DNA of 64,000 nt from a virus. The notes below the pieces were generated by a model that did no database searches, was not told the DNA's origin, and saw nothing but the letters and a program-made list of their open reading frames with translations. The translations under genes and the position numbers were made by a program. The stretch is taken from the IMG/VR virus record IMGVR_UViG_3300026290_000001, one strand, 5' to 3'. Shown piece by piece: positions 15,283-51,212 of this stretch. The first letter of the stretch is position 1; every line of letters begins with the position of its first letter.

Positions 15283-15297
15283 AATTAATATTTATTA

Positions 15298-28680: not shown

Positions 28681-28725
28681 TTGTTAGAATTAAATAATTT
28701 TTACATAGGTGAAAATGCGAAATAG
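28681..28725 (+). pseudogene. 15-codon remnant of a methyltransferase 5' end
   Basis: TTG LLELNNFYIGE then stop; matches the first ~30 nt of the genes at 35506 and 40520; lies at the junction with G+C-richer DNA. Confidence 0.45.
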
Positions 28726-28733
28726 ACAGACAC

Positions 28734-29534: not shown

Positions 29535-29726
29535 TGTTGATAAAACTATTCAGGATATGATTAAACGCAGTCCAAAGAGACTGCGACGGGGAGGGGTGAT
29601 CTTATGTTAAAAAAGTGTAACAGGGGGTTGTTTAGATGAATACAGAAAATGCAATGGAGACTGCGGCAATTGTGATTATTCATCAGAGCCCACAAAAGGC
29701 TAATTATCGCAGTTCCATAAAAAGAG

Positions 29727-29755
29727 TTGACAAGCATCTTGACACAGTGTAGTAT
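29727..29755 (+). promoter_or_regulatory. sigma-A-type promoter (TTGACA-17-TAGTAT)
   Basis: Direct reading inside the G+C-richer insert. Confidence 0.45.
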
Positions 29756-29834
29756 AAATACATACCCGTATGTCTATATCCGTACAACCAAGACGGGGGC
29801 TTATTTGGTGGGAATAAAATATTGAGGTGACATA

Positions 29835-36345: not shown

Positions 36346-36419
36346 ATTGGGCTTTATAATCTATAAAATCATTACCAAATTTGAGTTTGGTTCAAAGTTA
36401 TAGAAAGGAGAAATTATAA

Positions 36420-37256
36420 ATTATCAATACATATTATAAAAATAAATATGCAAGGATATATCAATGTGACAATTTAGAATTATTAAAACAATTACCAAAT
36501 GAATACATAGATTTAATTTATTGTGATATTTTATACAACACTGGTAAGAAATTTAAGGATTATGATGATCAATTAGGCACAACACAAGAAGCAATTAAAT
36601 GGTATAAACCAAGATTAATAGAAATGAAAAGAGTATTAAAGGAAACAGGATCAATTTATTTACATATGGATTTTAGATTAATACATTATTTAAAAGTAAA
36701 AATGGATGAAATATTTCAATTAAATAATTTTAGAAATGAGATTATATGGGATAAAGGATTTAGGGGTACGGAGCAAAAAGAGTTTTATCAACATTCGCAT
36801 GATTCAATATTATTTTATACAAAAACTAATAACTACATATGGAATAAAGTTTTTTGTGAATATGCTGATAAAAATATGAGTAGGTATAATAAAACTGATG
36901 AAGATGGAAATAAATATGCTTTAATTAAAAGAAAAAGAACAGACGGAAGTGTTTATTATGGCAAAACATATCCACAATCAGAAGGAAAGAAAGCAGACGA
37001 TGTATTTAGAGATATAAAAACTTTTTCATCAACAGCTAAAGAAAGAATTGGTTATGATACTCAAAAACCAAAGGCATTATTAGAACGTATTATTAAAGCA
37101 TCTTCTAATGAAGGAGATATAGTAGCAGACTTCTTTATGGGATCAGGCACTACTGGCGAAGTGGCATTAGAATTAGGTCGTAAATTTATTGGTTGTGATA
37201 TTGGGGAAAGGGCATGTGAGATTACTAAAAATAGATTAGATAAAATTATAATATAA
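36420..37256 (+). CDS. methyltransferase-like protein with degenerate motif IV (DILY) and no canonical start; possible pseudogene
   Basis: [27 protein letters not shown] plus C-terminal YDTQKP ... DFFMGSGTT; only ATT/ATC codons follow AAAGGAG before track ATG 36624. Confidence 0.45.
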
Positions 37257-37890: not shown

Positions 37891-38165
37891 AAACGAAAGG
37901 AGAAATATGCATACTGAACTAACAGAGGATCAACTTAAACTAATAAAAAAGTATGGGGAAATTAATCCACCACATCATACTATTGAAGAAATTGAAGAAG
38001 CATTGAAAAAATCATCTGAAATTAAAATAAAATTACAAGAAAAATAAATATCGTGATAAAATCTCTATTTGGTGCAGAAATGGATGGCTATATATTGGGA
38101 TTTGTGGGGCTATAAATTTTGAAAATAAAAACAAAAAATAAAGATAGGAGGTAAATATATAAAAT

Positions 38166-39158
38166 TTGCTTGAATTGAATAAAATATATAATGAAGATTG
38201 TATAATCGGCATGAAAAAATTATTAAAAGATGGTTACAAAAATACTTTTGATTTTATAGAAATTGATCCACCTTATAATATAGGCAAAGATAAATGGGAT
38301 AAATTTAAAAACCATCAAACATATTTAAATTTTATTAATGAAGTTATAAGTTTATCTAATGAATTAATGAGCGATAATGGAACCTTATTTTTATGGCATA
38401 ATAATATCGAGGTGTTATCAGATTTTATTAAATTAATTAATACTACAGATTTAAAATTAATGCAATTATGTATATGGAATAAATATTATAAATATAATGA
38501 TGACGGTAATTTGAATAATCAATACGGATTTTTAAATGGATTTATTCAAAGTGATTTAAATAGGAATTATCAAAAAATGTGCGAATATATTTTATATTAC
38601 ACTAAACAAAACGAAGAATTAACTGAATATAATGAAAAAGACCCATTTAAATCACTAAAGGAATATTTTTTTAATGCCCAAAAATCTTCTGGTTTATCAA
38701 GAAATAAAATTAATCAAATATTGGGGCATAGACAATCTGAGCATACTTTTTATACTAAAACTCAATGGACTTTTCCAACAGAAGAAACATATTTAGAATT
38801 ACAAAATATAATGAATCTACCTATCCCTTATAATGATTTAAAAAATACATATGAAACAATGAGATATACATATAATTCAGAGAAAAACAATTATCGAAGT
38901 TGTATTTGGAATTACCCGATAAGTAAAGAATCAAAACACAAGACAGAGAAACCGTTACAATTGTATTATGATTTATATGAAATACATACAAAAAATAATA
39001 GTAAATGTTTATTCCCGTTTGTGGGTAGTGGTAATAATATTTTAAGTTTATTTAAAATAAATAATTTTGATGGAGGGAAACGAGAGTTTGTAGGTTTTGA
39101 AACTGACAAAACATGGTTTACTTATATAAATGAAAAAATAGATTTAAGAATCCCGTAA
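38166..39158 (+). CDS. DNA methyltransferase, beta-class (DPPY)
   Basis: IEIDPPYN and C-terminal FPFVGSGNN; TTG start; 3' end overlaps a GAATCCC/GGGATTC hairpin. Confidence 0.65.
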   Translation: MLELNKIYNEDCIIGMKKLLKDGYKNTFDFIEIDPPYNIGKDKWDKFKNHQTYLNFINEVISLSNELMSDNGTLFLWHNNIEVLSDFIKLINTTDLKLMQLCIWNKYYKYNDDGNLNNQYGFLNGFIQSDLNRNYQKMCEYILYYTKQNEELTEYNEKDPFKSLKEYFFNAQKSSGLSRNKINQILGHRQSEHTFYTKTQWTFPTEETYLELQNIMNLPIPYNDLKNTYETMRYTYNSEKNNYRSCIWNYPISKESKHKTEKPLQLYYDLYEIHTKNNSKCLFPFVGSGNNILSLFKINNFDGGKREFVGFETDKTWFTYINEKIDLRIP

Positions 39159-39232
39159 TATTGGGATTCTTAAACCCAAAAATCAACACCAAACTTCGGT
39201 TTGGTTCAAAGTTATAGGAAGGAGAAAATAAT

Positions 39233-39427
39233 ATGTTTGATTGTAGATTCGCTAAAAGTATTCTATTGGATAAAAATGAAGATGATACTTATCATATGAC
39301 AATAAAAGGAGATATTTATAATCTTGATCCTGAAGCGGAAATTGATTTTTCTAGAGTGAAAATTATTAATTTTGATATTGAGGCATTAGCAACAACTGGG
39401 ACAATATGTAAAATAAAAATAATATAA
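39233..39427 (+). CDS. hypothetical protein
   Basis: Track ORF with AAGGAGAAA SD. Confidence 0.4.
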   Translation: MFDCRFAKSILLDKNEDDTYHMTIKGDIYNLDPEAEIDFSRVKIINFDIEALATTGTICKIKII

Positions 39428-39521
39428 AATTTTTGTTTGGTTAAGAAATTTATAATTATTATAGGGATTGATTTTACCATAATTTTAATATATAATAAAA
39501 ATAAAAACGGAGGTTTTATAT

Positions 39522-39692
39522 ATGGCGATTAAATTAGAATGTGATAAAATCATTCCAAAGTGTAGTGATTGTAAATATAATAAGGATTATTCTTCTTGGC
39601 AACATAAAATTCCTTGTGGAAAACAATTCTGTGTATATGGTTGTAATGTATGTAAAAATCCATGTGATGCAAAGGAGAATATGTCTTGGTAA
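39522..39692 (+). CDS. small Cys-rich protein (56 aa), not in track
   Basis: Twelve Cys in 56 aa; ATG after ACGGAGGT SD. Confidence 0.35.
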   Translation: MAIKLECDKIIPKCSDCKYNKDYSSWQHKIPCGKQFCVYGCNVCKNPCDAKENMSW

Positions 39693-39720
39693 AAATTAAT
39701 ATTAATAAAGGAGTTATAGT

Positions 39721-40461
39721 TTGTATAAATCGCCTCTTAGATATCCAGGAGGTAAAAGCAGGGCGATAAAAATAATTATCGAGTATTTTCCGAAAAGTAT
39801 AAAAGTTATGAGTTCTCATTTTGTAGGAGGAGGATCAATTGAACTTTATTTATCTGAAAATAATAAAATAATTGCGTATGATAATTTCGATCTGCTTATT
39901 AACTTTTGGAATCAATTAAAATATAAAAATAAAAATTTACATAATACAATATTAAAATATTACCCGTTAACAAAAGAACAATTTTTAGATATACAAAAAA
40001 ATATTTATAATTCAGATGATGAAGTTGAAATGGCCGCTAAATTTTATGTTTTAAATAGATGTAGTTTTTCAGGTAGTACATTAAGCGGTGGAATGTCACT
40101 AAATCATCCAAGATTTAATATTAATTTAATACATAAACTTCAGGAAGTAAATTTAAAAAATATTGAGTTTATTTGTATGGATTTCAAAGAATCAATATTA
40201 TTACATCAAAATAATTTTAAGTATTTAGACCCACCCTATTATATTGAAAATAATTTATATGGAGTAAAAGGAGGGTTACATAAAAATTTCGATCATATTG
40301 GTTTGAATGGTATTTTAAAACAATCATCTAATTGGGTATTAAGTTACAATGATTGTGAATACATAAGAAAACTTTATGAAGGATGCAAAATAATACAAGT
40401 TGATTGGAAATACGGAATGAGTAAAGATAAAAAATCTAATGAAATTCTTATAATAAATTAG
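39721..40461 (+). CDS. Dam-like N6-adenine DNA methyltransferase (alpha-class, D12 family)
   Basis: PLRYPGGK near N-terminus and YLDPPYY later, the D12/Dam arrangement; TTG start. Confidence 0.75.
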   Translation: MYKSPLRYPGGKSRAIKIIIEYFPKSIKVMSSHFVGGGSIELYLSENNKIIAYDNFDLLINFWNQLKYKNKNLHNTILKYYPLTKEQFLDIQKNIYNSDDEVEMAAKFYVLNRCSFSGSTLSGGMSLNHPRFNINLIHKLQEVNLKNIEFICMDFKESILLHQNNFKYLDPPYYIENNLYGVKGGLHKNFDHIGLNGILKQSSNWVLSYNDCEYIRKLYEGCKIIQVDWKYGMSKDKKSNEILIIN

Positions 40462-40519
40462 TAATATAAAAACAATATAAATATTTGGTTTGGTCATGAA
40501 ATATGAAAGGAGATTATAT

Positions 40520-41323
40520 TTGATAGAATTAAATAATTTTTACATAGGCGAGTCTGTTAATTTTATGCGTTACAATATTCCAGACAACTACATTGATTTA
40601 ACTATTACTTCACCACCTTATGATGATTTAAGAAAATATAATGGATTTATATTTGATTATCAAAGTATGTTTAAGGAATTATATAGAGTTACTAAAGACG
40701 GTGGAATTGTAGTTTGGGTAGTAGGAGATAAAACTGAAAATGGTAGTGAAACATTAACAAGTTTTAAACATGCTTTATATGCTAAAGAAATCGGTTTTAA
40801 TGTTCACGATACACAAATTTATTATAAGAATAATCCTATACCAACAACAGGCAATAGATATCATCAACACTTTGAATATATGTTCGTATTTAGCAAGAAT
40901 AAACCAAGGGTATTTAATCCAATCAAGGAAGATTGTAAATATAGTGGTTTGGCTAATATGAAAAATAGAGGCAAGGATGGTTCATTAAATTATACTAAAA
41001 TTGAAAGAACTAAAGATAAAAAGGTAGGTAATGTTTTCTTTTATTCTATTGGAGGGGGTATTACTACTAAAGATAAAATTGCTTATAGTCATCCTGCGTT
41101 GTTTCCAGATAAATTAGCCGAAGATCAAATAATAACTTGGAGCAATAAAGAAGATATTATTTTTGACCCAATGTGCGGTAGTGGTACTACTTGTAAAATG
41201 GCATGGTTAAATAAAAGAAATTTTATTGGAATTGATATAAGTGAAGAATATATAAATGATATTTGTATACCTAGACTAAATATATATGGTTGGCAACAAA
41301 AGCAAAATATAAAAATATCATAA
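40520..41323 (+). CDS. DNA methyltransferase, beta-class, SPPY type (paralog group)
   Basis: TSPPYDD and DPMCGSGTT; track ORF 40490 trimmed to TTG after AAAGGAGA SD. Confidence 0.7.
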   Translation: MIELNNFYIGESVNFMRYNIPDNYIDLTITSPPYDDLRKYNGFIFDYQSMFKELYRVTKDGGIVVWVVGDKTENGSETLTSFKHALYAKEIGFNVHDTQIYYKNNPIPTTGNRYHQHFEYMFVFSKNKPRVFNPIKEDCKYSGLANMKNRGKDGSLNYTKIERTKDKKVGNVFFYSIGGGITTKDKIAYSHPALFPDKLAEDQIITWSNKEDIIFDPMCGSGTTCKMAWLNKRNFIGIDISEEYINDICIPRLNIYGWQQKQNIKIS

Positions 41324-41428
41324 AATAAAAATCCCAATTTCTAGGGATTTACAAAACTCAAAAACATGATCAAAACTTCGTTTTGTTACATCAATAAAAC
41401 AATAAAATAAATTAAGGAGGGAAATAAA

Positions 41429-41884
41429 ATAGCGGATTTTGATAACAATAGATTTGCTTCAAAAAATCAAGAGTACGCAACACCTTGGGAATTATTTAAT
41501 AAGATAAATGAAGAATTTAATTTTACCTTAGATGTGTGTGCAGATGAAAATAATCATAAAGTTGATACATATTTTACGGAAGAACAAAATGCTCTTATCC
41601 AAAATTGGAAAGGAGTATGTTGGATGAATCCACCTTATAAGGATATGAAAAAATGGGTTATAAAAGCATACGAAGAATCAGTTAAAAATGATAGTATTGT
41701 GGTTTGTTTAATTCCAGCAAGAACTAATACCAAATGGTGGCATGAGTATTGCATGAAAGGTGAAATAAGATTTATTAAAGGTAGACCAAAATTTGAAGGA
41801 TGTATTCATGGTTTACCACAACCATTAGCAATTGTTGTTTTTGGAAAAGAATATAAAAATACATATGGTTCATTAGCAATTTAG
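41429..41884 (+). CDS. phage-type Dam N6-adenine methyltransferase (PF05869-like), probable ATA start
   Basis: YATPWELF ... FTLDVCADENNHK ... WKGVCWMNPPYKD; conserved region begins at ATA 7 nt after AAGGAGGG; track starts at internal GTG 41534. Confidence 0.6.
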   Translation: MADFDNNRFASKNQEYATPWELFNKINEEFNFTLDVCADENNHKVDTYFTEEQNALIQNWKGVCWMNPPYKDMKKWVIKAYEESVKNDSIVVCLIPARTNTKWWHEYCMKGEIRFIKGRPKFEGCIHGLPQPLAIVVFGKEYKNTYGSLAI

Positions 41885-42014
41885 TAAAAATATCAAGCAA
41901 ACAATGATATATAGGCATTTTCAACTTATCACAAATGCCTATATATTGGGCTTTTACAAAAATCATTACCAAAATATCATTTTATATTAATTAGAAAGGA
42001 GAAACAAAATATAA

Positions 42015-42584
42015 TTGAGTAAAAAATATAACATTATATATGCTGACCCACCTTGGAAACCTACTGAGAGTGGTACAGGAGTTAGAGGTACGGCAGATTT
42101 AAAAAAACGATATCAAGGTGTAATGAGTATAGAAGAAATATGTGCTTTACCAGTAAAAGATATATGTGAAGATACATGCATACTGTTTTTATGGGTTACA
42201 TTTCCAAGATTACAAGAAGGAATGAAAACTATTGAAGCGTGGGGATTTCAATATTATGGGTTGGGATTTGATTGGATTAAAACTAATCTTAAAAGTGGAA
42301 CTCCATTTTGGGGAATGGGTTATTATACTAGACAAAATTCAGAAATATGCTTAATAGGAGTAAAAAAGGATAAAAATAAAAGAATTAAACCACAAGTTAA
42401 AAATATTTTATCTGTAGTTCATTCACCAAGAAGAGAACATAGTCAAAAACCTGATGAAATAAGAGATTACATAGTTAAAATTTGTGGTGATTTACCTAGA
42501 ATAGAATTATTTGCTAGACAAAAAGTTGAAGGTTGGGACGCATGGGGCAATGAAATTGAAAATGATATTATATTAAATACATAA
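42015..42584 (+). CDS. MT-A70-family N6-adenine methyltransferase
   Basis: IIYADPPW (DPPW motif) with downstream FLWV and QKP; TTG start. Confidence 0.7.
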   Translation: MSKKYNIIYADPPWKPTESGTGVRGTADLKKRYQGVMSIEEICALPVKDICEDTCILFLWVTFPRLQEGMKTIEAWGFQYYGLGFDWIKTNLKSGTPFWGMGYYTRQNSEICLIGVKKDKNKRIKPQVKNILSVVHSPRREHSQKPDEIRDYIVKICGDLPRIELFARQKVEGWDAWGNEIENDIILNT

Positions 42585-42667
42585 AATAAAAATTATCATA
42601 AAAGTCTGAATTGGTTTAGAGTTAATAAAAATGAAAAATAAAAATAGGGAGGTATCTAATACATAAA

Positions 42668-43438
42668 TTGATTGAATTGAATACTATTTATAATGAAGAT
42701 TGTATTAACTTTATGAAGAAACTACCTAATGAATCTATTGATTTAATAATTGCCGATCCACCTTATTTTGAAATATGCGGAGAGTTTGATTTTATATGGA
42801 AATCATTAGATGACTATTTAAATTGGTCTAAAGAATGGATTTTACAATGTTATAATATTTTAAAACCATCAGGCAGTATTTATATATGGGGTAAAATTGG
42901 ATTTGGTAAGGGGTATTCTTTATTTAAAATTGCAGATTGGATAGAGAATGAAAAACTGTTTATTATAAAAAATTGGATTACTCAACGTAATACAAGAGGG
43001 AGAGGAACAAAGAAAGGGTATATAGAGGCAAGAGAAGAACTTCTGTTTTGCGTAAAGTCTAATCAATGTACTTGGAATATTGCTTATACCGAAGAAAAAT
43101 CTAATAGAAAAGATTTAGGATTTGATGGCAAACCTAGAAAAAATGAGTTTAAAAGATGCTCTGATGTATGGATTGATATAGCTGAAGCAAGTCAATCAAG
43201 TAATGAAAGATTTAAAACATTTAATGGTAAAACTTTTCCAACAGTTAAAGCACAAAAATTATGTAATAGAATTATTTTGGCAAGTTCTAATGAAAATGAT
43301 TTAGTTTATATTCCCTTTGCTGGTTCTGGAAGTGAAATTGAATCTTGTATAAAAAATAAAAGAAATTGGATTGCGACAGAAATTAATAATCAATACATAA
43401 ATGAAATCATTGAACCTAGAATTAAACGTATAATATAA
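42668..43438 (+). CDS. DNA methyltransferase, beta-class (DPPY)
   Basis: IIADPPYFE and C-terminal IPFAGSGSE; TTG start with conserved 5' end. Confidence 0.7.
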   Translation: MIELNTIYNEDCINFMKKLPNESIDLIIADPPYFEICGEFDFIWKSLDDYLNWSKEWILQCYNILKPSGSIYIWGKIGFGKGYSLFKIADWIENEKLFIIKNWITQRNTRGRGTKKGYIEAREELLFCVKSNQCTWNIAYTEEKSNRKDLGFDGKPRKNEFKRCSDVWIDIAEASQSSNERFKTFNGKTFPTVKAQKLCNRIILASSNENDLVYIPFAGSGSEIESCIKNKRNWIATEINNQYINEIIEPRIKRII

Positions 43439-43665
43439 AAAATAAAAATCATGATAAAATAAGTGTTTTATCATAATATTGCAGAAATCAGTATTTTGGT
43501 AGGTTATCAACAAATACACACAACAAAGCCCTAAATGGTGGGAATGAAAAGGTATTTTAAGTGGATTAACTCTACCAAAGTAAAAAATATTTGAACCAAA
43601 TGCGTCTTTTATTCAAAGTTTATTAAAAACATAAAATAAATATAAAGAAAAGAGGATTATATATA

Positions 43666-44370
43666 TTGAAACATATTTTAAGTTTTAGTGGCGGCAAAGA
43701 TTCAACCGCAATGTTACTCATAATGTTAGAGAGAGAATATCCAATAGATGAAATTATATTTTGCGATACTGGTAAAGAATTTCCTGCTTTATATAGACAT
43801 ATTGATAAAGTTGAAGAATACATAAACCAACCTATAACTAGGCTTAAAGGAGAAAAAACTTTTGATTATTGGATGTTCGAACATGAAAAAACCAAAGGTA
43901 AACATTTAGGTAAAAAGGGTTATGGTTGGGCAGACACCAGAGCAAGATGGTGTACAGCATATTTTAAGCGTGAAATTATGAATAAATACATAAAAGAAAA
44001 ATATAATAATGAATATAAAGAGTATGTAGGTATTGCTTATGATGAGTTTAAAAGATATGAGAAAACACAAAATGGTCATAAAAAATATCCTTTAATTGAA
44101 TGGAAAATAACTGAAGGTATGGCTCTAAAATATTGCTATGATAAAGGATTTGATTGGGAAGGAGTATACACACATTTTGAACGGGTATCTTGCTGGTGCT
44201 GCCCTTTAAAAAATCAGAGAGAATTATATATGCTTTATTCTTTCTATCCTGAATTATGGGCAGAACTCAAAGATATGGATAGTAGAGCATGGAACCAGTT
44301 TAAAAGAGATTACAGTGTTCAGGATTTAGAAGATAAATTTAGGGGATGGCAAGACATAATAAAAATATAA
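43666..44370 (+). CDS. PAPS-reductase-family PP-loop ATPase-like protein
   Basis: ILSFSGGKDSTAML PP-loop near N-terminus and C-terminal CWCCP cysteine cluster. Confidence 0.6.
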   Translation: MKHILSFSGGKDSTAMLLIMLEREYPIDEIIFCDTGKEFPALYRHIDKVEEYINQPITRLKGEKTFDYWMFEHEKTKGKHLGKKGYGWADTRARWCTAYFKREIMNKYIKEKYNNEYKEYVGIAYDEFKRYEKTQNGHKKYPLIEWKITEGMALKYCYDKGFDWEGVYTHFERVSCWCCPLKNQRELYMLYSFYPELWAELKDMDSRAWNQFKRDYSVQDLEDKFRGWQDIIKI

Positions 44371-44434
44371 ATATTTACTTTCTTTATAGTATGGTGTATA
44401 ATAAATATATCATATCTATATAGGAGGTTAAATT

Positions 44435-44644
44435 ATGAAAACATATAAAACTGAATCAGGAGAAGAATGGTTATATTTTGATGAATGGTTAGTAGAAAAC
44501 AGTTATTATAAATGGAAAAAACAATATGATATTTTAGCAAGTACGGGGACAGATGAAGAAGAAATAGATAGGATTAAAGACGATTTATTAAAACAATTCT
44601 ATGATTTTTGTGAAGAATATGGGTATGTTGGTCAGGAAGTATAA
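44435..44644 (+). CDS. hypothetical protein
   Basis: Track ORF with TAGGAGGT SD. Confidence 0.45.
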   Translation: MKTYKTESGEEWLYFDEWLVENSYYKWKKQYDILASTGTDEEEIDRIKDDLLKQFYDFCEEYGYVGQEV

Positions 44645-44764
44645 TTTATAATTTTTGTGTTTTACGAACCCCTAAATAATGGGGTTTGTGAAACCAAAAA
44701 TCATGATAAAACTCATCTTTTGTGTTGATATTAAAATTTAAATATAAGGAGGTAATATTATTAA

Positions 44765-45517
44765 TTGTTTGAATTAAATAAAATATATTGTGTTGATTGT
44801 TTAGAAGGGATTAAAAATATAGAAAGTGGCAGTATTGATATGGTATTTTTTGATCCTCCTTTCAATTTAAACAAAGATTATGGAATTAAAATTAATGATA
44901 ATTTAATAAAAGAAAAATATTTAAACTGGCAGTATGAAATATTAAAAGAATCTATTAGAGTGCTATGTGATAATGGGGCAATAATTTATCATACTATCCC
45001 AAAATGGGCATTTAAAATAGCTAATTATCTTGATGAACAAGGAATGGTTTTTCAAAATTGGATTTGTTGGAATGAATCAGGATCAACACCTACCCCTTCA
45101 AGATTATATCCTAAACATTATCCTATTCTTTGGTTTTCTAAGAATAAACTCAAAACTTTTAATAAACAATATATTCCCATAGAAAGATGCAGAAAGTGCA
45201 ATACTACTATAAAAGATTATGGTGGCAAATTTAAAGATTTAAAAGAAATAGATGGTGAAAAAGTAACTGTTTTAAGTGATGTATGGGACGATATACATAG
45301 AATAAGACATAATAAAAATAAAAATAGAAAATCAAATGAACTTCCCGAAATTTTAATGGAAAGAATAATTAACTTATATTCTAAAGAAAATGATATAATT
45401 TTAGACCCATTTTCAGGTAGTGGGACAACATGTAAAATAGCAAAGAAACTAAATAGACAATATATTGGATTTGAAATTAATCCTGAATACATAAAAATCT
45501 CAAAAGAACGTATTTAA
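44765..45517 (+). CDS. DNA methyltransferase, beta-class (DPPF)
   Basis: VFFDPPFN and DPFSGSGTT; TTG start. Confidence 0.7.
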   Translation: MFELNKIYCVDCLEGIKNIESGSIDMVFFDPPFNLNKDYGIKINDNLIKEKYLNWQYEILKESIRVLCDNGAIIYHTIPKWAFKIANYLDEQGMVFQNWICWNESGSTPTPSRLYPKHYPILWFSKNKLKTFNKQYIPIERCRKCNTTIKDYGGKFKDLKEIDGEKVTVLSDVWDDIHRIRHNKNKNRKSNELPEILMERIINLYSKENDIILDPFSGSGTTCKIAKKLNRQYIGFEINPEYIKISKERI

Positions 45518-45544
45518 AACAACAAAATAATATTATTGACGTTG

Positions 45545-45573
45545 TTGACTTTGTTTGTGAAAATTGATATAAT
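45545..45573 (+). promoter_or_regulatory. sigma-A-type promoter (TTGACT-17-TGaTATAAT)
   Basis: Direct reading, extended -10. Confidence 0.5.
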
Positions 45574-45598
45574 TAATAAAAATGTAGGAGGTATATTT

Positions 45599-45859
45599 AT
45601 GGCAGTACGCAGACAAAGGGCAACAACTAGTGCAGAAATAATGGATAAAGATATTAAAATAGTAATTAAAAAATCAAAAGTTCGCTATAGAAGTGTAGAA
45701 TCAAAATCTCATGGTTTTGTTAATGAATTTTGGATTGAAAAAATTGATGATTTATTTTTTTCAGGAGGTAAAATAAGTGAAGAAAGAATTTATCAACATT
45801 GGAAATTCAACTTTGATAAAAATAAGTGGGAGTGTATAGAAGACAAATCTAAAAATTAA
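45599..45859 (+). CDS. hypothetical protein
   Basis: Track ORF 45536 trimmed to ATG after TAGGAGGT SD. Confidence 0.4.
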   Translation: MAVRRQRATTSAEIMDKDIKIVIKKSKVRYRSVESKSHGFVNEFWIEKIDDLFFSGGKISEERIYQHWKFNFDKNKWECIEDKSKN

Positions 45860-45972
45860 TTTAATAAGAAAAATACAAATCCCATTATATCGGACTTCAT
45901 TTTTATAAAAATCATGATAAAACTTGTCTTTTGTCATGATATTAAAACAAAAATAAATATGGAGGTTAAAAT

Positions 45973-47394
45973 ATAATTAAATTAAATAAGTTTGCATTAG
46001 TACAATTAACTCCAAAAGATATGCGAAGCCAAGATAGTATAAATTTAGGATTAGAAATTATATCTGAAATAGTTAAAAAACAAGGTTGGCAATTAGATAC
46101 ATATAAATTCGGAGATAAAATTCAAGATGTTAATTCATATGATATTATAGGGTTTAGTTTATTCTATTTTACACAAATGTTAAATTTAGTTCCATTCCTA
46201 AAGAGTAATAATATTAAACCATTAAGTAGTAAAAGAAACAATCAACCACTATTATTAGCTGGCGGTCAAGGTATTCAAAATCCTAAACCAATTAGTAAAT
46301 TTATTGATGTATTTTGTATGGGTGAGGGTGAGGGGGTTTTGGAATATATCTTAGAAAATTATAAAAATAAAAATATTTTATCAAACCATAAGTCTTTGTA
46401 TATACCAAATATAAATGATAATTTTATATTCAACTCAATAAAAGATGTTGATTCTAAACCTATAATTTATGGTAAAAATAGCATGATAGAATTAACGAGG
46501 GGATGTAAAAATAGATGTAAGTTTTGTCAGTATGGATGGACAAATGGTAAATATCGAGAAAAAAACATCGAACTAGTAAAACAACAAATATTAGAGGTTA
46601 AAGATAAAGGCATTAAAAATATTAACTTGTTAAGTTGTAATTTGGGTGGTTATTCTAAGATAAATGAAGTTCTTGATTTTTGTATAGAAGAAAATATTAG
46701 ATTAATGAATACCGATATGAGAATTGACGAATATAGTGAAGAAATAGCTATAAAATTAGACCTACTAAAAGTGAGAACTCTAAAAGTTGGAGTAGAAAGC
46801 TTTTCTGATCAAACACGAATTGGTATTAATAAGAATATTTCAAAAATACAATTAGATACTTTTATTGACAGAGCTTTGAAGCATAATATATCAAATTTAC
46901 ATTTTTATTTAATATACGGACTTCCAAACGAAGAAAACTATAATGAATGGTTTAATTATATGGAATACATAAAAAATAGAATAAAATCTGTTGATAGAAA
47001 TATAAGAATTGAATTTAGTATTACTAATTTTGAACCAGCAATATATACACCCTTTGAAAAAAGTCCTTTAATTAATTTCCAAGACAAGCATAAATTTATG
47101 AGAGAATATTTAATAAAACAAGAAGAATTGGGTTATATAAAACAACCCGCACAAACAAAAGATTATAAAAATAGTCATGGAAGATTAGGCAGAAAAGAAC
47201 GAAGTTATAATATTGGAATGTGGTTACTACATGGGGACGAAACTGTAGGGGATGTGTTATATGAATTAAACATTAAAGGAATAGGTAGGAGTATAAATGA
47301 AAAGATTTATAATCAAATTTATAAAATATGCCAATCAAAAACTGATGTTTATCAAATAAGAAACATTCAAGATTTAAATGAAAATATATGGTGA
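45973..47394 (+). CDS. radical SAM protein with N-terminal B12-binding-like domain, probable ATA start
   Basis: TRGCKNRCKFCQYGW (CxxxCxxC); N-terminal FALVQLTP ... LGLEIISEIVKKQGW fits the cobalamin-binding-domain pattern; track ATG 46021 has no SD, ATA lies 7 nt after GGAGGTT. Confidence 0.55.
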   Translation: MIKLNKFALVQLTPKDMRSQDSINLGLEIISEIVKKQGWQLDTYKFGDKIQDVNSYDIIGFSLFYFTQMLNLVPFLKSNNIKPLSSKRNNQPLLLAGGQGIQNPKPISKFIDVFCMGEGEGVLEYILENYKNKNILSNHKSLYIPNINDNFIFNSIKDVDSKPIIYGKNSMIELTRGCKNRCKFCQYGWTNGKYREKNIELVKQQILEVKDKGIKNINLLSCNLGGYSKINEVLDFCIEENIRLMNTDMRIDEYSEEIAIKLDLLKVRTLKVGVESFSDQTRIGINKNISKIQLDTFIDRALKHNISNLHFYLIYGLPNEENYNEWFNYMEYIKNRIKSVDRNIRIEFSITNFEPAIYTPFEKSPLINFQDKHKFMREYLIKQEELGYIKQPAQTKDYKNSHGRLGRKERSYNIGMWLLHGDETVGDVLYELNIKGIGRSINEKIYNQIYKICQSKTDVYQIRNIQDLNENIW

Positions 47395-47470
47395 TGTCCA
47401 TGCCTATAAATTGGGATTCTCAACACTCAAAAACATGATAAAACTAGTTTTTGGTCATGAAATTAAATGC

Positions 47471-47499
47471 TTGACAAATATTAATTAAAATAGTAATAT
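47471..47499 (+). promoter_or_regulatory. sigma-A-type promoter (TTGACA-17-TAATAT)
   Basis: Direct reading. Confidence 0.5.
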
Positions 47500-47525
47500 A
47501 AAGATACTGCGAAGGGAGGAAGGTT

Positions 47526-49397
47526 ATGAGTGAAATAGAAAATCTCAAACAACAATTAGATTACCATGATGATTTGTATTACAATCAAGACGATCCTGAA
47601 TTATCTGATGTGGAATATGATGCTTTAAAACAAGAATATCTTAATTCAGTTAATCAACAAGAATACAACTATATACCTGGGCAAGCACAATTTAAAAAAT
47701 TCACACACACATTCCCTATTAAATCATTGGGGAAAATAAATACTATTGAACAAGCAAGAAAAGAAATTGAAAGGTTATATCCAGTAGTTATTGAACCTAA
47801 ATATGATGGATTAACCTTAGTGTTATATGGTGAAGGGAAAGTAGTAACTAGAGGTAGTGGTCAAATCGGAGAAGATGTTACTGCAAATGCTTCTAGATTT
47901 ATGCGTACTTATAATCCATATGGTTTACCTATTCGTGGCGAAGCAATTATGCCTATATCAGTGTTCCATGAAATTAACAAACAAAGGGATGTAGAAGGTA
48001 AGGAATTATTTAAAAATCCAAGAAATGCAATAGCAGGTATTCTTAGAAATAAAGATAATAGTAATATCCCTAAAGGGTTAAGATTTATTGCTTATGAAAT
48101 CGTAGGATCAGCAGAATCCCATATTCAACAATTATTAGAACTTAAAAAATACTATGATATACCTGAAGCAGATACTATTTGGAATTATAGTGAAATTGAT
48201 GATGCAGTAAAATTCATAGAAAACTTTGATCGTTCTAAATTAGATTATGAAATTGATGGATTAGTTATTAAATCTAATAAGACAAATGCATTAGATATTT
48301 TTGGTGAAACTGAACATCATCCGAACCATAGTGTTGCCTACAAGTTTCCTTCTCAGGGAGAATGGACTGTATTAAAATCTATAACTTGGCAAACTGGTCG
48401 CACGGGCAGAATTACCCCTGTGGCAGAATTGGAACCAGTAGATATTATGGGAAGTACAATCGAACGTGCTACATTGCATAATATAGGGTATATTAGTGGT
48501 TTAGATTTACAGCTATATGATAAGGTGTTTTTAGTGAAAAGTAATGATATTATTCCCGCTGTGATTAAATGTGAGCATACTAAAAATAGTAAACCTATTG
48601 AAATTATAAACAAGTGTCCTTCATGTGGAAGTGAATTAAAAATTATCAATGATCAATTATTCTGTATTAATGATGATTGTTTGGCAAAATTATTATATAG
48701 AACTTCTCATATGGTTAGTCGAGATGCCCTTAATATAGATGGTCTTAGTGAGCAAACCATTTTAAAAATGATTGAAGCAGGATATATTAATAAACCTTGG
48801 GATATATTTGATGTTACTGAAACAGAAATATTAAAATTAGATGGTTTTGCAAAGAAATCTGCCAAAAAAATATATGAAAATATTCAAAATGCAAGAAATT
48901 GTGATTTTGATAGAGCAATTTACGCTTGTGGAATTGAACTGATAGGCAGAAAGGTTAGTAAAGATATTGCAAAAGAATTTGAGACTATTGATAATTTGTT
49001 ATATTGTTTAAGACGTGATGATGCTAGAAGTATATTAGGTATGATTGATGGTATTGGTAATACCACTATAGATAGTTTATTGAATAACGTTAATATTTTA
49101 GAAAATATGGTGGATTATTTAAGTATTAGTAGTGTTGAAAAGAAAGAAACAACTTTTAAATCTCTTGAAAATATTACATTTGTAGTTACCGGAAATGTAG
49201 AAACATTTAAAAACCGTAAAGAGTTAGAAGAATTGATCACTTCTCTTGGTGGTAAGTTAAGTGGATCAGTTTCAAGTAAAACTAATTATTTAATCAACAA
49301 CGATATTACCTCCAATTCTGGTAAGAATAAAAAGGCAAACGAATTAGGGGTAGAAATTATTAGTGAAATACGATTTAATGAAATGATAGGTAGGTAA
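47526..49397 (+). CDS. ligA: NAD-dependent DNA ligase
   Basis: N-terminal LDYHDDLYYNQDDPELSDVEYDALKQEY, adenylylation motif EPKYDGL, Cys4 zinc finger CPSCGSEL...CINDDC, C-terminal BRCT-like VVTGNVETF. Confidence 0.85.
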   Translation: MSEIENLKQQLDYHDDLYYNQDDPELSDVEYDALKQEYLNSVNQQEYNYIPGQAQFKKFTHTFPIKSLGKINTIEQARKEIERLYPVVIEPKYDGLTLVLYGEGKVVTRGSGQIGEDVTANASRFMRTYNPYGLPIRGEAIMPISVFHEINKQRDVEGKELFKNPRNAIAGILRNKDNSNIPKGLRFIAYEIVGSAESHIQQLLELKKYYDIPEADTIWNYSEIDDAVKFIENFDRSKLDYEIDGLVIKSNKTNALDIFGETEHHPNHSVAYKFPSQGEWTVLKSITWQTGRTGRITPVAELEPVDIMGSTIERATLHNIGYISGLDLQLYDKVFLVKSNDIIPAVIKCEHTKNSKPIEIINKCPSCGSELKIINDQLFCINDDCLAKLLYRTSHMVSRDALNIDGLSEQTILKMIEAGYINKPWDIFDVTETEILKLDGFAKKSAKKIYENIQNARNCDFDRAIYACGIELIGRKVSKDIAKEFETIDNLLYCLRRDDARSILGMIDGIGNTTIDSLLNNVNILENMVDYLSISSVEKKETTFKSLENITFVVTGNVETFKNRKELEELITSLGGKLSGSVSSKTNYLINNDITSNSGKNKKANELGVEIISEIRFNEMIGR

Positions 49398-49400
49398 AAT

Positions 49401-49640
49401 ATGAACGATAAAATCTATATTATACCTAGAGAAGATAAACCAATAAAATTCATTATTGAAGAATTACCATGTCCTATCTGTTCACAAATTGGATATGATT
49501 TTAGATGTGAACATGCCAAAAGTAGTTTTAAAGATTTAATATATACAATATCTTGTACTAATTTTAATCATTGTGAAAATGCAGAGAATATATCATTGAA
49601 ATTCAATGAGTTAATACAAGATGAGTTGTTAACCACTTGA
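49401..49640 (+). CDS. small zinc-finger-like protein
   Basis: CPICSQ ... CEH. Confidence 0.45.
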   Translation: MNDKIYIIPREDKPIKFIIEELPCPICSQIGYDFRCEHAKSSFKDLIYTISCTNFNHCENAENISLKFNELIQDELLTT

Positions 49641-49950
49641 CAGATTAGTAAAATAAATATATAATAAAATTACAACAAAATATCAAAAATATCAATTTTA
49701 CAAATCCCAATATATAGCCATTCTTGAAGGTGAAAATCAACACCAAATCTGCGTTTTGTCACAACTTTTATGAATGCTAATATACAGGGCTTGAGAATTG
49801 CTATTTTAAGCGAAAATACGGTAAAATCAATGGTTTTAAGTAATTACTAAAATTAGCTTTACATAAAGTCCAATATATAGGCGTTTATAATTCTAAAAAT
49901 CGTGACAAAAGTGTCATTTTGTTTAGAAATTATAGAAAGGGGAATTAAAT

Positions 49951-50136
49951 ATGGATAAAAATTTTTTATTGCTTTGTTCATATGAGAATATGGAAGGAAT
50001 GCTAGAAAGAGATTTTGAATGGTATCAAACAGAAGAAAACATGAGAGAAAGCATTGAAGATAAAAAAGAATTTATAAAAGATTTTACGGTCAATAAAGCA
50101 ATAGAAATATTACAAGTTAGAAATATAGAAATATAA
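49951..50136 (+). CDS. hypothetical protein
   Basis: Track ORF with AAAGGGGAA SD. Confidence 0.4.
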   Translation: MDKNFLLLCSYENMEGMLERDFEWYQTEENMRESIEDKKEFIKDFTVNKAIEILQVRNIEI

Positions 50137-50192
50137 TTTAAATAATAAACCTTAGTAATAAAAACATTAAAAGGAGATGAATTATACATAAT

Positions 50193-50951
50193 TTGATTGA
50201 ATTGAATAAAATTTATAATGAAGATTGTATAGGTGGAAGGGGTATGTGTTTAATCCCAAATGAATCAATCGATATGATTTTATGTGATCTTCCGTATGGA
50301 ACTACGATGGCGAAATGGGATAAGATTATCAACCAAGAAGAATTGTGGACGCAGTATAGAAGGATAATTAAACCCAGAGGGGCAATTGTACTAACTTCTA
50401 GTCAGCCATTTTCAAGTGCTTTAATATATAAAAACCTAGACATTTATAGGCATTCATGGGTTTGGGAAAAGAACAATTCTGCAGATTATGCCAATGCAAA
50501 TTGTAGACCAATGAAAATACATGAGGAAGTATTGGTATTTTCATTCGCACATGATGTTGCTCCTGCTAAAGTAAAGATGATTTATAATCCACAGGGGCTA
50601 ATACCAGTTAATAAGCCCAATCGGAGAGGTAGACATAGTGAAACAACAGGTCATTTTAGAGAGAATGAGTACATACAAAAATACACAAACTATCCTACTA
50701 CAATATTGAGGTTTGCTTCAGATAAAGATAAAATTCACTCTACACAAAAACCTGTGGCGTTGTTTGAATATCTTATAGAAACATATAGTAATGAAGGTGA
50801 TTTGGTTTTAGATAATTGTATAGGCTCAGGCACAACAGCGATTGCGTGTATAAACATCAAACGTAAATTTATAGGGTTTGAAAATGACAATACATATTTT
50901 GAGTTAGCAAACAAAAGAATAGAAGAACATAAATGTAAAATAAATATTTGA
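50193..50951 (+). CDS. DNA methyltransferase, beta-class, variant motif IV (DLPY)
   Basis: ILCDLPYGT and HSTQKP ... DNCIGSGTT; TTG start; 5' 40 nt near-identical to 38166 and 42668. Confidence 0.65.
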   Translation: MIELNKIYNEDCIGGRGMCLIPNESIDMILCDLPYGTTMAKWDKIINQEELWTQYRRIIKPRGAIVLTSSQPFSSALIYKNLDIYRHSWVWEKNNSADYANANCRPMKIHEEVLVFSFAHDVAPAKVKMIYNPQGLIPVNKPNRRGRHSETTGHFRENEYIQKYTNYPTTILRFASDKDKIHSTQKPVALFEYLIETYSNEGDLVLDNCIGSGTTAIACINIKRKFIGFENDNTYFELANKRIEEHKCKINI

Positions 50952-51212
50952 CATTTAACCACAAACAGTATATAATAAAATTACCAGCAATATGCATCAA
51001 AAATATTAAAAATTTGCTTTTTACAAATTCCATTATATAGGTATTTATCAATACCCACAAAGCCCGATATATTGGGATTTTTACAAAAACATTACCAAAA
51101 ACAAATTTGGTCATGATTTTAAATTTGTCTTATATAAATTCAATATATAAGAATTTATTTTAAAATAAATTGCTGAGTTGAAATACGAAAGAAAGGAGGA
51201 AATACATAAAGT

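What the first reader, a model, noticed from the sequence alone, without database searches (positions are those of the whole stretch)
38166..50232. Near-identical TTG-initiated 5' ends shared by otherwise divergent methyltransferase genes
The genes at 38166, 42668 and 50193 begin with nearly the same ~40 nt (TTG ATT/CTT GAA TTG AAT AAA AT(A/T) TAT AAT GAA GAT TGT ATA, protein MIELNKIYNEDC) and then diverge. The genes at 35506, 40520 and the stub at 28681 share a second version (TTG ATA/TTA GAA TTA AAT AAT TTT TA(C/T) ATA GG). Most island methyltransferases use TTG. Conserved 5' ends on diverged bodies fit either a shared translation-initiation module with a deliberately weak start or recombination-mediated exchange of gene bodies.
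Basis: seen in the sequence. Interest (0 to 1): 0.45.

Follow-up and report, generated by a model that had tools for sequence, protein, structure and literature searches.

The report
Shared heads of phage methyltransferase genes
Several otherwise unrelated DNA-methyltransferase genes in this AT-rich phage begin with almost the same 40 bases because they encode a family-wide N-terminal protein motif in a genome with very few codon choices; related phages show that these identical stretches serve as crossover points for swapping gene bodies, and nearly all of the island's modification genes start with weak non-ATG codons.

Summary
The first 39 nt of the genes at 38166, 42668 and 50193 are 87-95% identical, against 43-47% nt and 20-26% aa in the bodies. 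No such match is expected by chance.

The cause is mostly ordinary. The heads encode M(I/L)ELNKIYNEDC, the widespread N-terminus of beta-class N6/N4 DNA methyltransferases. It aligns to residue 1 of crystallised M.MboIIA and occurs in hundreds of unrelated viral contigs with other codons, mostly with ATG. With about 27% GC, codon bias turns an identical peptide into nearly identical DNA. No conserved RNA structure or Rfam element was found.

The recombination idea gains independent support:
- One related contig joins the 38166 upstream region and head to a 42668-type body.
- Another carries the exact 42668 head on a 34608/50193-type body.
- A third is an allele of 50193 with identical ends and a replaced middle.
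- The stub at 28681 is what remains after a GC-richer 1.8-kb segment replaced a resident gene body.

The weak-start idea also holds, for the start codons rather than the 40 nt. 17 of 18 modification genes use TTG, ATA, ATT or GTG, while other genes almost all use ATG (p about 1e-9). Orthologues in relatives keep this pattern.

This is a new variant of known mechanisms, of moderate interest.

The parts
38166..38204 (+). Head copy 1: TTG CTT GAA TTG AAT AAA ATA TAT AAT GAA GAT TGT ATA (LLELNKIYNEDCI), the 5' end of the 330-aa PF01555 methyltransferase 38166-39158.
   Evidence: An in-frame TAA lies one codon upstream (38160-38162; the intervening codon 38163-38165 is AAT, not a start codon), so TTG is the only possible start if the head is translated.
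42668..42706 (+). Head copy 2: TTG ATT GAA TTG AAT ACT ATT TAT AAT GAA GAT TGT ATT (LIELNTIYNEDCI), the 5' end of the 256-aa PF01555 methyltransferase 42668-43438. An in-frame ATA at 42659 is an alternative start.
   Evidence: The identical 39 nt sits on a different gene body in related contig L099.
50193..50231 (+). Head copy 3: TTG ATT GAA TTG AAT AAA ATT TAT AAT GAA GAT TGT ATA (LIELNKIYNEDCI), the 5' end of the 252-aa PF01555 methyltransferase 50193-50951. An in-frame ATA at 50184 is an alternative start.
   Evidence: An allele with identical ends and a replaced middle exists in L081.
44765..44803 (+). Diverged head: TTG TTT GAA TTA AAT AAA ATA TAT TGT GTT GAT TGT TTA (LFELNKIYCVDCL), of the PF01555 methyltransferase 44765-45517.
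   Evidence: (28-32/39 to group 1), family D8.
35506..36345 (+). Group-2 methyltransferase (TTG start, head LIELNNFYIGES). It is a paralogue of 40520 over its whole length.
   Evidence: 66% aa and 71% nt identity to 40520 over the body.
40520..41323 (+). Group-2 methyltransferase (TTG start, head LIELNNFYIGES).
28681..28725 (+). Stub: the group-2 upstream region, Shine-Dalgarno sequence, TTG and about 31 nt of head, then divergence and a TAG stop. It is the remnant of a resident 35506/40520-type gene.
   Evidence: (family D17: 28628-28713 versus 35453-35538, 73%). It is present in a second independent assembly that is 100% identical to the window.
28712..30500 (+). GC-richer segment (36-45% GC against 22-25% in the flanks). 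It carries methyltransferase 28734/28755-29534 and the first 220 or so codons of methyltransferase 29835-30650. The right junction lies inside the conserved 3' part of 29835, where identity to 40520 rises to 86-90% nt.
   Evidence: (fine GC profile and windowed identity).
30647..31471 (+). Gamma-type methyltransferase-like gene with an ATA start. The TPPDLA and EPSAGAG motifs lie upstream of the first GTG, and the open frame has no canonical start.
   Evidence: The orthologue in L099 (66% aa) also starts at ATA with the same Shine-Dalgarno spacing.
32174..33475 (+). PF01555 methyltransferase with a probable ATA start. The head ILEVIYK...LVHGDNIEAM lies upstream of the first ATG.
   Evidence: The orthologue in L057 (59% aa) also lacks a canonical start at its head.
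36420..37256 (+). PF01555 methyltransferase with an ATT (or ATC) start directly after a TAA.
   Evidence: Extending the ORF upstream raises the Pfam score from 159 to 186 bits and the profile coverage from 39-220 to 1-220. There is no ATG, GTG or TTG in the extension. The orthologue in L088/L095 (90% aa) starts at ATA.
41429..41884 (+). PF05869 Dam-type methyltransferase with an ATA start.
   Evidence: Extending the ORF upstream raises the Pfam score from 83 to 112 bits and the profile start from position 34 to 8. There is no canonical start upstream.
27777..28349 (+). Methyltransferase-like gene (weak Eco57I-type hit, NPPF motif) with a TTG start.
34632..35378 (+). PF01555 methyltransferase. 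The start is probably TTG at 34632 (Shine-Dalgarno AAAGGAG, spacing 13) rather than the ATG at 34608, which has no Shine-Dalgarno sequence.
   Evidence: The orthologue in L095 has the same TTG arrangement.
39721..40461 (+). D12-class Dam methyltransferase with a TTG start and an unrelated 5' end.
42015..42584 (+). MT-A70 family methyltransferase with a TTG start directly after a TAA and an unrelated 5' end.
43666..44370 (+). PAPS-reductase-domain gene with a TTG start.
45973..47394 (+). Radical SAM gene with a probable ATA or ATT start (Shine-Dalgarno GGAGGT). The ATG at 46021 has no Shine-Dalgarno sequence.
38045..38110 (+). One copy of the repeated intergenic module (hairpin plus inverted repeat) found upstream of island cassettes. 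About 20 copies lie between 27.4 and 51.1 kb.
   Evidence: The homologous module precedes the chimeric genes in L088 and L099.

Best explanation
The shared 5' ends are the coding sequence of a conserved N-terminal motif of beta-class N6/N4 DNA methyltransferases, (M)-[IL]-E-L-N-K-I-Y-N-E-D-C. This motif precedes the DPPY catalytic motif. In a genome of about 27% GC, most of these residues have one dominant codon (GAA, AAT, AAA, TAT, GAT, TGT each 82-87%). An identical peptide therefore becomes nearly identical DNA, while the bodies have diverged to 20-26% aa identity. This step is shown.

The resulting 40-120-nt tracts of identity lie in direct orientation in a tandem array of paralogues. Together with similar tracts over the C-terminal AdoMet-binding motifs, they serve as substrates for homologous recombination. 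That recombination reassorts upstream regions and heads with different bodies, replaces bodies, and deletes or inserts cassettes. This step is inferred from natural mosaics in related contigs and from a fossil stub in the window.

Separately, nearly every DNA-modification gene of the island starts with a weak codon (UUG, AUA, AUU or GUG) behind a strong Shine-Dalgarno sequence. UUG is often at an over-long spacing of 11-15 nt. Other genes use AUG at 7-9 nt. The most likely meaning is selection to keep translation of many methyltransferases low. That meaning is inferred, not shown.
For: Motif and codon bias:
- The N-termini of 120 homologues of 50193 from bacteria and phages mostly read M(I)ELNKIYNEDC.
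- About 90 homologous genes in 80 viral loci keep the peptide with varied synonymous codons (GAG, CTG, AAC, TAC, GAC, TGC) and mostly ATG.
- The head aligns to residue 1 of M.MboIIA, PDB 1G60, which begins MLEINKIHQMNC.
- Codon usage and expected codon identity: observed 8, 10 and 10 against expected 6.5, 7.2 and 6.9.

Recombination:
- L081 is 100% identical to the window over 120 nt, from the Shine-Dalgarno sequence to codon 32 of 50193. It is about 50% identical in the middle and about 95% over the last 150 nt or so, including the downstream promoter.
- L088/L095 has the upstream 130 nt and head of 38166 (35/36) joined to a 42668-type body (78% nt).
- L099 has the 42668 head (39/39) and its proximal upstream region on a body only 27% aa identical to 42668 and 52% to 34608. 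Given the same peptide, chance codon identity is about 0.002 by my own calculation from the frequencies.
- The stub at 28681 is followed by a GC jump, and the 3' end of 29835 is 86-90% nt identical to 40520. The same arrangement is present in a second assembly.

Weak starts:
- 17/18 modification genes are non-ATG, against at most 16/86 other genes. Fisher p = 1.3e-9, and the count for other genes is an upper bound.
- Pfam coverage shows that coding sequence extends upstream of any canonical start for 36420 and 41429.
- Non-canonical starts are conserved in orthologues in L095, L099 and L057.
- Median spacing is 12 for TTG methyltransferase genes and 8 for ATG genes, p = 0.009.
Against: - All comparison sequences are metagenomic contigs. 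A chimeric assembly across a 39-nt repeat cannot be excluded for L088 and L099. It is unlikely for L081, which has two junctions, and for the stub, which two assemblies share.
- The directions and dates of the exchanges are unknown.
- The rare Leu codon TTG (13% of Leu codons) at codon 4 in all three heads, and the NEDC head on 38166 whose orthologues mostly have KQDC, hint at some nucleotide-level shared ancestry or gene conversion beyond motif plus codon bias.
- For 42668 and 50193 the true start could be an in-frame ATA three codons upstream.
- Start sites are predictions; there are no proteomic or ribosome-profiling data.
- That weak starts are selected, rather than merely tolerated, is inferred from the skew and its conservation alone.
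Confidence: 0.7

Rival explanations
1. Conserved motif plus codon bias only. The identical heads have no recombinational or regulatory role, and the apparent mosaics are coincidence or assembly artefacts.
For: Codon identity, given the identical peptide, is within 1-2 SD of expectation. The peptide is ubiquitous. All mosaics come from short-read metagenome assemblies.
Against: L088 also shares 130 nt of non-coding upstream sequence with 38166 and none with 42668. L099 shares 39/39 nt, including the rare TTG and ACT codons, plus the proximal upstream sequence. L081 has two clean junctions. The stub with its GC discontinuity lies in the window itself and in a second, 100% identical assembly.
Confidence: 0.15
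2. A dedicated nucleotide-level translation-initiation or operator module. The roughly 40 nt would be selected as RNA or DNA, for example as the binding site of a RegA-like translational repressor or as a structure that tunes initiation at UUG.
For: Identity begins about 10 nt upstream of the start (ATACATAA). All three heads use the rare TTG Leu codon at codon 4. The starts are weak and the spacers long. A weak 7-bp pairing brackets the start in 42668 and 50193.
Against: - Folding z-scores range from -2.1 to +0.6 with no common structure, and there is no Rfam hit.
- Orthologues of 50193 (L003, L004) and of 38166 and 42668 (L083/84, L089, L090) change the head at synonymous and non-synonymous sites about as fast as the body, and some use ATG.
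- Other non-AUG island genes (Dam, MT-A70, PAPS reductase, radical SAM, 30647, 36420) have unrelated 5' ends.
Confidence: 0.08
3. Concerted evolution. Gene conversion among paralogues within one genome actively homogenises the heads, so that heads resemble each other more within a phage than between orthologues.
For: 38166 has NEDC like its genome-mates, while 14 orthologues of its subfamily have KQDC, QQDC, NMDC or NINC. In the other lineage both the 38166 and 42668 orthologues have NI[ND]C. The TTG Leu codon is shared.
Against: The difference is only two residues, which fits ordinary divergence at 60-73% identity towards the family consensus. There are few genomes and a short tract, so no statistical test was possible. 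This rival overlaps with the favoured recombination explanation rather than excluding it.
Confidence: 0.2

Closest known systems
Movement of target-recognition domains between non-orthologous methyltransferase genes, by homologous recombination at DNA that encodes conserved motifs (Helicobacter pylori Type III mod genes; Furuta & Kobayashi 2012, PMC3467074; also PMC3077401, PMC3983042)
   Same: The mosaics are of the same kind. Segments that encode conserved methyltransferase motifs are near-identical and flank a replaced variable region (L081). Exchange also occurs between non-orthologous paralogues (L088, L099).
   Different: - Here the genes are orphan beta-class (PF01555) methyltransferases in a tandem phage island, not chromosomal Type III systems.
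- The 5' junction can lie in the very first 13 codons, so the promoter, Shine-Dalgarno sequence and start codon travel with the head.
- The identity is created largely by extreme AT codon bias.
- The evidence is comparative only.
PeSL mobile regulatory cassettes (promoter-early stem-loops) that mediate modular shuffling in hyperplastic regions of T4-type phages (Arbiol et al. 2010, PMC2839356; PMC4122927)
   Same: A repeated intergenic module of about 85 nt (hairpin plus inverted repeat, followed by an A-rich stretch and a Shine-Dalgarno sequence) bounds almost every cassette of the island, with about 20 copies. The gene content of the island differs greatly between relatives.
   Different: - The sequence and the host group (Firmicutes-type phage) are unrelated to the T4-type examples.
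- Promoter and terminator activity was not tested.
- The junctions I could map lie in the coding heads and motifs, not in the intergenic modules.
- Mini-circles were not testable.
Beta-class N6-adenine/N4-cytosine DNA methyltransferases (Pfam PF01555; M.MboIIA 1G60, DpnA 5HEK, CcrM 6PBD, M.RsrI 1EG2)
   Same: The domain, the motif order (N-terminal head, DPPY..., FxGSGTT) and an N-terminus that aligns from residue 1 of M.MboIIA.
   Different: Nothing unusual in the proteins themselves. What is unusual is their number (11 PF01555 genes and about 7 other modification genes in 24 kb) and their start codons.
Autoregulated or low-level expression through non-AUG starts (infC AUU, discriminated by IF3; measured weak initiation from UUG, AUA and AUU in E. 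coli). Cited from my own knowledge, not checked in the library.
   Same: Near-cognate start codons sit behind strong Shine-Dalgarno sequences.
   Different: Here a whole functional class of about 17 phage genes uses them. No feedback loop or factor has been identified.

Membership tests
Beta-class N6/N4 DNA methyltransferase (PF01555) | Significant match to the PF01555 profile above the gathering score | tested here: met
   38166 scores 73 bits, 42668 117, 50193 103, 35506 149, 40520 135 and 44765 182, against a cut-off of 26.7.
Beta-class N6/N4 DNA methyltransferase (PF01555) | Motif order: catalytic (D/S)PP(Y/F) near the N-terminus and the AdoMet-binding FxGSG motif near the C-terminus | tested here: met
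   The alignment shows DPPY, DLPY, SPPY or DPPF at residues 30-40 or so, and GSGTT, GSGSE or GSGNN near the C-terminus.
Beta-class N6/N4 DNA methyltransferase (PF01555) | The N-terminal head belongs to the family fold and is not a local addition | tested here: met
   The head aligns from residue 1 of M.MboIIA (1G60). The same peptide is found in 100 or more homologues.
Beta-class N6/N4 DNA methyltransferase (PF01555) | Methyltransferase activity and recognition sequence | not testable with these tools
   This needs a methylome (SMRT or ONT sequencing) or biochemistry.
Motif-mediated domain/body exchange between methyltransferase genes (Furuta-Kobayashi type) | Mosaic identity profile with breakpoints inside DNA that encodes conserved motifs | tested here: met
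   L081 against the window: 100%, then about 50%, then about 95%. In 29835 against 40520, identity rises to 86-90% in the last 50 codons, with a GC shift.
Motif-mediated domain/body exchange between methyltransferase genes (Furuta-Kobayashi type) | Exchange between non-orthologous genes at different loci | tested here: met
   L088: 38166 upstream region and head on a 42668-type body. L099: 42668 head on a 34608/50193-type body. Caveat: these are metagenomic assemblies.
Motif-mediated domain/body exchange between methyltransferase genes (Furuta-Kobayashi type) | Phylogenetic incongruence between the exchanged and retained regions across many genomes | tested here: inconclusive
   Only pairwise identity profiles were possible. 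There are too few complete related genomes to build trees.
PeSL-like mobile regulatory cassettes | Repeated intergenic motif concentrated in a variable (hyperplastic) region | tested here: met
   An nhmmer profile finds about 20 copies between 27.4 and 51.1 kb, and only 2 elsewhere in the 64 kb.
PeSL-like mobile regulatory cassettes | The motif combines a strong sigma-70 promoter with a stem-loop terminator | tested here: inconclusive
   Hairpins are present, and some are called terminator-like (41329-41350, 36338-36352, 51063-51076). Perfect promoters occur at 49637 and 50948 but not in every module, and promoter-like matches are not enriched over shuffles.
PeSL-like mobile regulatory cassettes | Recombination between the motifs generates indels or mini-circles | not testable with these tools
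   This needs PCR or long reads. The mapped junctions lie in coding heads, not in the modules.
Structured translational operator / known cis-regulatory RNA | Conserved secondary structure or an Rfam family match at the shared 5' ends | tested here: not met
   Folding z-scores run from -2.1 to +0.6 with different structures. There are 0 Rfam matches in the window.

The most novel reading that the evidence does not exclude
A lineage of large AT-rich Firmicutes-type phages encodes its whole anti-restriction DNA-modification arsenal (about 17 genes here, and the same in relatives L095, L099 and L057) with near-cognate start codons: UUG, AUA, AUU or AUC behind strong Shine-Dalgarno sequences. This would be a selected, regulon-wide translational control. 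It could be a throttle that keeps many potentially harmful methyltransferases at catalytic levels. It could also be a switch whose output depends on initiation fidelity (for example IF3 availability) during infection. In the same lineage, the codon-bias-homogenised heads would let promoter, start codon and head recombine onto new enzyme bodies.
Probability: 0.35. Interest if true: 0.7.

Novelty: new variant of a known kind. Interest (0 to 1): 0.5.

Why it matters
The finding shows how a phage can keep and reshuffle a large arsenal of orphan methyltransferases. Conserved protein motifs, written in a nearly codon-free AT-rich dialect, become recombination handles. Specificity-determining bodies can then be swapped, lost or imported while the regulatory context stays in place.

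The stub at 28681 and three natural mosaics make this directly testable by PCR or long reads.

The class-specific use of UUG, AUA and AUU starts has two consequences if it is confirmed:
- It would be a clear natural example of start-codon choice used to set the expression of a functional gene class in a phage.
- It warns that standard gene callers truncate or miss such genes. Five island genes here are mis-started by an ATG/GTG/TTG-only ORF finder.

Tried and rejected
- **Stop-codon reassignment** as the reason some ORFs lack canonical starts. Rejected: the Shine-Dalgarno sequence lies between the upstream stop and the proposed ATA or ATT, and the stub is out of frame with 28734.
- **RNA structure or riboswitch at the heads.** No significant or shared fold and no Rfam hit.
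- **A phage tRNA that might read unusual starts.** There are none in the window.
- **A close cultured relative for annotation.** There is no nucleotide match in INPHARED. The nearest is Clostridium phage Amboise, at 48% aa identity in PolIII-alpha. The first 50 kb of its record list no annotated methyltransferase, so it gave no test.
- **Literature.** Searches for weak or non-canonical start codons in phage methyltransferases found nothing relevant. This is absence in the searched library only.
- **Head-biased homologue retrieval.** The first locus search used NKIYNEDC as a pattern. I therefore repeated the searches with head-less queries for 38166 and 42668.
- **ATA-TAA mini-ORFs** directly upstream of TTG in 35506, 38166 and 42015. 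I noted them but did not pursue them. In a 27% GC genome they may be chance.

Full report
**Context**

The window is AT-rich (25-32% GC) and all of its genes are on the + strand. It matches 100% two IMG/VR contigs from different samples: 3300009671_000358 (99.6 kb) and 3300009647_000134 (64.9 kb). It has no close relative among deposited phages. The nearest is Clostridium phage Amboise, at 48% aa identity in the PolIII-alpha polymerase.

The flanks encode replication and repair functions: clamp, RtcB, RNA ligase, LigA, DnaB, primase, RecJ and PolIII-alpha.

Between about 27.7 and 51 kb lie about 18 DNA-modification genes:
- 11 PF01555 beta-class methyltransferases;
- a D12 Dam;
- a PF05869 Dam;
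- an MT-A70;
- two weak Eco57I/gamma-like genes;
- a PAPS-reductase-domain gene;
- a radical SAM gene.

**The observation**

The first 39 nt of 38166, 42668 and 50193 are 34-37/39 identical. Their codon-aligned bodies are 43-47% nt and 20-26% aa identical. The 39-mer at up to 3 mismatches hits only these three sites, with none expected in shuffles. Gene 44765 has a looser copy.

The second version (35506, 40520 and the stub at 28681) is also real. But 35506 and 40520 are simply paralogues, 66% aa and 71% nt identical throughout. Only the stub is a head without its body.

**Why the heads are identical**

The heads encode (M)[IL]ELN[KT]IYNEDCI.
- Among 120 database homologues of 50193, from Bacillus, Staphylococcus, Geobacillus phage and many metagenomes, most N-termini read M(I)ELNKIYNEDC.
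- In 80 viral loci the same peptide is written with many synonymous codons (GAG, CTG/CTA, AAC, AAG, TAC, GAC, TGC) and mostly starts with ATG. That search used the peptide as one of its patterns, so I repeated the searches with head-less queries.
- The head aligns from residue 1 of crystallised M.MboIIA (1G60), which begins MLEINKIHQMNC.

The head is therefore a translated, family-level N-terminal motif.

In this genome GAA, AAT, AAA, TAT, GAT and TGT each make up 82-87% of their codon families. Given the identical residues, the expected number of identical codons is 6.5-7.2, against 8-10 observed, which is only 1-2 SD above expectation. The one odd synonymous feature is TTG (13% of Leu codons) at codon 4 in all three heads.

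Orthologues do not conserve the head better than the body:
- The 50193 orthologues in L003 and L004 (78% and 75% aa) read MLEINKIYNNDC and MLKINQVYNENC, and start with ATG.
- The 38166 orthologues mostly have ..NKIYKQDC...
- The 42668 orthologues have ..NKIYNIDC...

RNA folding of the region from -35 to +45 gives z-scores from -2.1 to +0.6 with no shared structure, and Rfam finds nothing. A nucleotide-level 'initiation module' is therefore not supported.

**Recombination**

Four independent footprints show that these identity tracts are used as crossover points.

(i) L081, a 967-bp JGI contig encoding P0017:
- It is 100% identical to the window for 120 nt, from the Shine-Dalgarno sequence to codon 32 of 50193.
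- It is about 50% identical through the middle.
- It is about 95% identical again over the last 150 nt or so, including the downstream promoter.
- It is an allele with a replaced body.

(ii) L088/L095, a 10.2-kb contig whose 36420 and 37261 orthologues are 90-93% aa identical to the window's:
- It carries a gene whose 130-nt upstream region and head match 38166 (head 35/36, including the rare CTT and TTG codons).
- From codon 13 onward the gene follows 42668 (78% nt).
- The upstream region of the window's own 42668 is unrelated to it.
- This is the product expected from recombination between the 38166 and 42668 heads.

(iii) L099, from a 139-kb relative whose LigA is 75% aa identical:
- It has the 42668 head at 39/39 nt plus the proximal upstream sequence.
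- Its body is only 27% aa identical to 42668 and 52% to 34608.
- Given the same peptide, the chance of complete codon identity is about 0.002 by my own calculation from the frequencies.

(iv) In the window itself, the stub at 28681:
- It keeps the group-2 upstream region, TTG and about 31 nt of head.
- GC then jumps from 0.22-0.25 to 0.36-0.45 until about 30,450.
- The last 50 codons or so of 29835 are again AT-rich and 86-90% nt identical to 40520.
- So a foreign segment of about 1.8 kb, carrying one whole methyltransferase and most of a second, replaced the body of a resident 40520-type gene. The right crossover lies in the conserved C-terminal motif region.
- The same arrangement is present in an independent assembly.

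The closest described mechanism is TRD movement between non-orthologous mod genes of H. pylori. It works by homologous recombination at DNA that encodes conserved methyltransferase motifs (PMC3467074).

Caveat: L081, L088 and L099 are short-read metagenomic assemblies, so chimeric assembly across a 39-nt repeat cannot be formally excluded for L088 and L099.

**Start codons**

An ATG/GTG/TTG-only ORF finder truncates five island genes. For each, conserved N-terminal sequence continues upstream to an ATA or ATT that sits 7-9 nt after a strong Shine-Dalgarno sequence, with no canonical start in the frame. The sites are 30647, 32174, 36420, 41429 and 45973. Extending 36420 and 41429 raises their Pfam scores (159 to 186 bits and 83 to 112 bits) and completes the profile coverage.

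With a uniform rule, 17 of 18 modification genes start with non-ATG codons: 11 TTG, 4 ATA, 1 ATT and 1 GTG. At most 16 of 86 other ORFs do so, and several of those 16 are artefacts of the rule. The odds ratio is 74 and Fisher p is 1.3e-9. Non-methyltransferase genes inside the island use ATG, so the effect follows gene function and not location.

TTG-started methyltransferase genes also have long spacers, with a median of 12 nt against 8 nt for ATG genes (p = 0.009).

The pattern recurs in relatives:
- ATA in the L099 orthologue of 30647;
- ATA in the L095 orthologue of 36420;
- TTG in the L095 orthologue of 34608;
- four of four methyltransferase genes without a canonical head start in L057, where the other 18 or so genes use ATG.

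The pattern is not general to the family, since most homologues elsewhere use ATG. I read it as selection for low translation of many methyltransferases in this phage lineage. That reading is an inference. My literature searches found no prior description.

**Other anatomy**

A repeated intergenic module of about 85 nt bounds almost every island cassette. It consists of a hairpin like AAATCCCAATATATTGGGATTT followed by an inverted repeat like ATCATGAYAAAAC...GTTTTGTCATGA. About 20 copies lie between 27.4 and 51.1 kb, and only two elsewhere. It resembles the PeSL cassettes of T4-type phages (PMC2839356). Its promoter and terminator function is untested, and the junctions I mapped lie in the coding heads and motifs, not in the modules.

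**Verdict**

The near-identity is explained by a conserved protein motif plus extreme codon bias. It is not a dedicated initiation module.

The weak-start idea is supported as a class-wide start-codon regime.

The mechanisms have precedents, so this is a new variant of known kinds. The start-codon regime is the least expected element.

Noticed in passing
window 27436-51133 (e.g. 36331-36415, 39144-39230, 41326-41402, 44662-44739, 45874-45957, 47395-47479, 49698-49783, 49862-49946, 51056-51133): A repeated intergenic module of about 85 nt: a hairpin like AAATCCCAATATATTGGGATTT followed by an inverted repeat like ATCATGAYAAAAC-N-GTTTTGTCATGA. About 20 copies bound nearly every island cassette, and only two copies (5768, 23252) lie elsewhere in the 64 kb. 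It resembles PeSL cassettes, or it could be an operator. The other phage lineage (L083/L084/L089) has a different repeated upstream module.
   Followed up: partly
window 30647, 32174, 36420, 41429, 45973 (also candidates 19839, 21165, 27557 outside the island): Genes whose conserved coding sequence extends upstream of any ATG, GTG or TTG to an ATA or ATT codon placed 7-9 nt after a strong Shine-Dalgarno sequence. Standard ORF calling truncates them (30776, 32237, 36624, 41534, 46021).
   Followed up: yes
window 28712-30500: A GC-richer block (36-45% GC against about 23%) with two methyltransferase genes that use GC-rich codons. It is probably a recent import from a different genome. The intergenic stretch 29535-29834 is unusually GC-rich (about 40%) and I did not examine it.
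   Followed up: partly
window 35497-35508, 38157-38168, 42006-42017: An in-frame ATA-TAA 'start-stop' pair lies upstream of the TTG start in 35506, 38166 and 42015: directly abutting it in 35506 and 42015, and one codon (AAT) before it in 38166. It sits between the Shine-Dalgarno sequence and the TTG. This could be chance in AT-rich sequence or a tiny upstream ORF.
   Followed up: no
window 43666-44370, 45973-47394, 31549-32130: A PAPS-reductase-domain gene, a radical SAM gene (with a Radical_SAM_N2 domain) and a DUF5662 gene sit among the methyltransferases and also use TTG or ATA starts. This suggests further DNA-modification chemistry beyond methylation.
   Followed up: no
window 49637-49665 and 50948-50976; 45545-45573: Perfect TTGACA-N17-TATAAT promoters, the second starting inside the stop codon of 50193 (its first three bases, TTG, are the last base of the preceding ATT codon plus the TG of the TGA stop) and conserved in L081. 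There is also a TTGACT-N17(TG)-TATAAT inside the mis-called ORF 45536; the real start there is probably ATG 45599.
   Followed up: no
L057 (IMGVR_UViG_3300042922_000836) 9983-17880: A more distant AT-rich phage of 137 kb has four methyltransferase genes whose heads all lack ATG (ATC/ATA, ATA, ATA, GTG/ATA), while its neighbouring genes use ATG. One of them is a 59% orthologue of window gene 32174.
   Followed up: partly
L095 (IMGVR_UViG_3300002168_000082) versus window 34.5-43.5 kb: Island content differs sharply between relatives. L095 keeps orthologues of 34608, 36420, 37261 and 42668 but lacks 35506, the 38166 body, 39721, 40520, 41429 and 42015, and has about 1 kb of unrelated sequence in their place.
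   Followed up: partly
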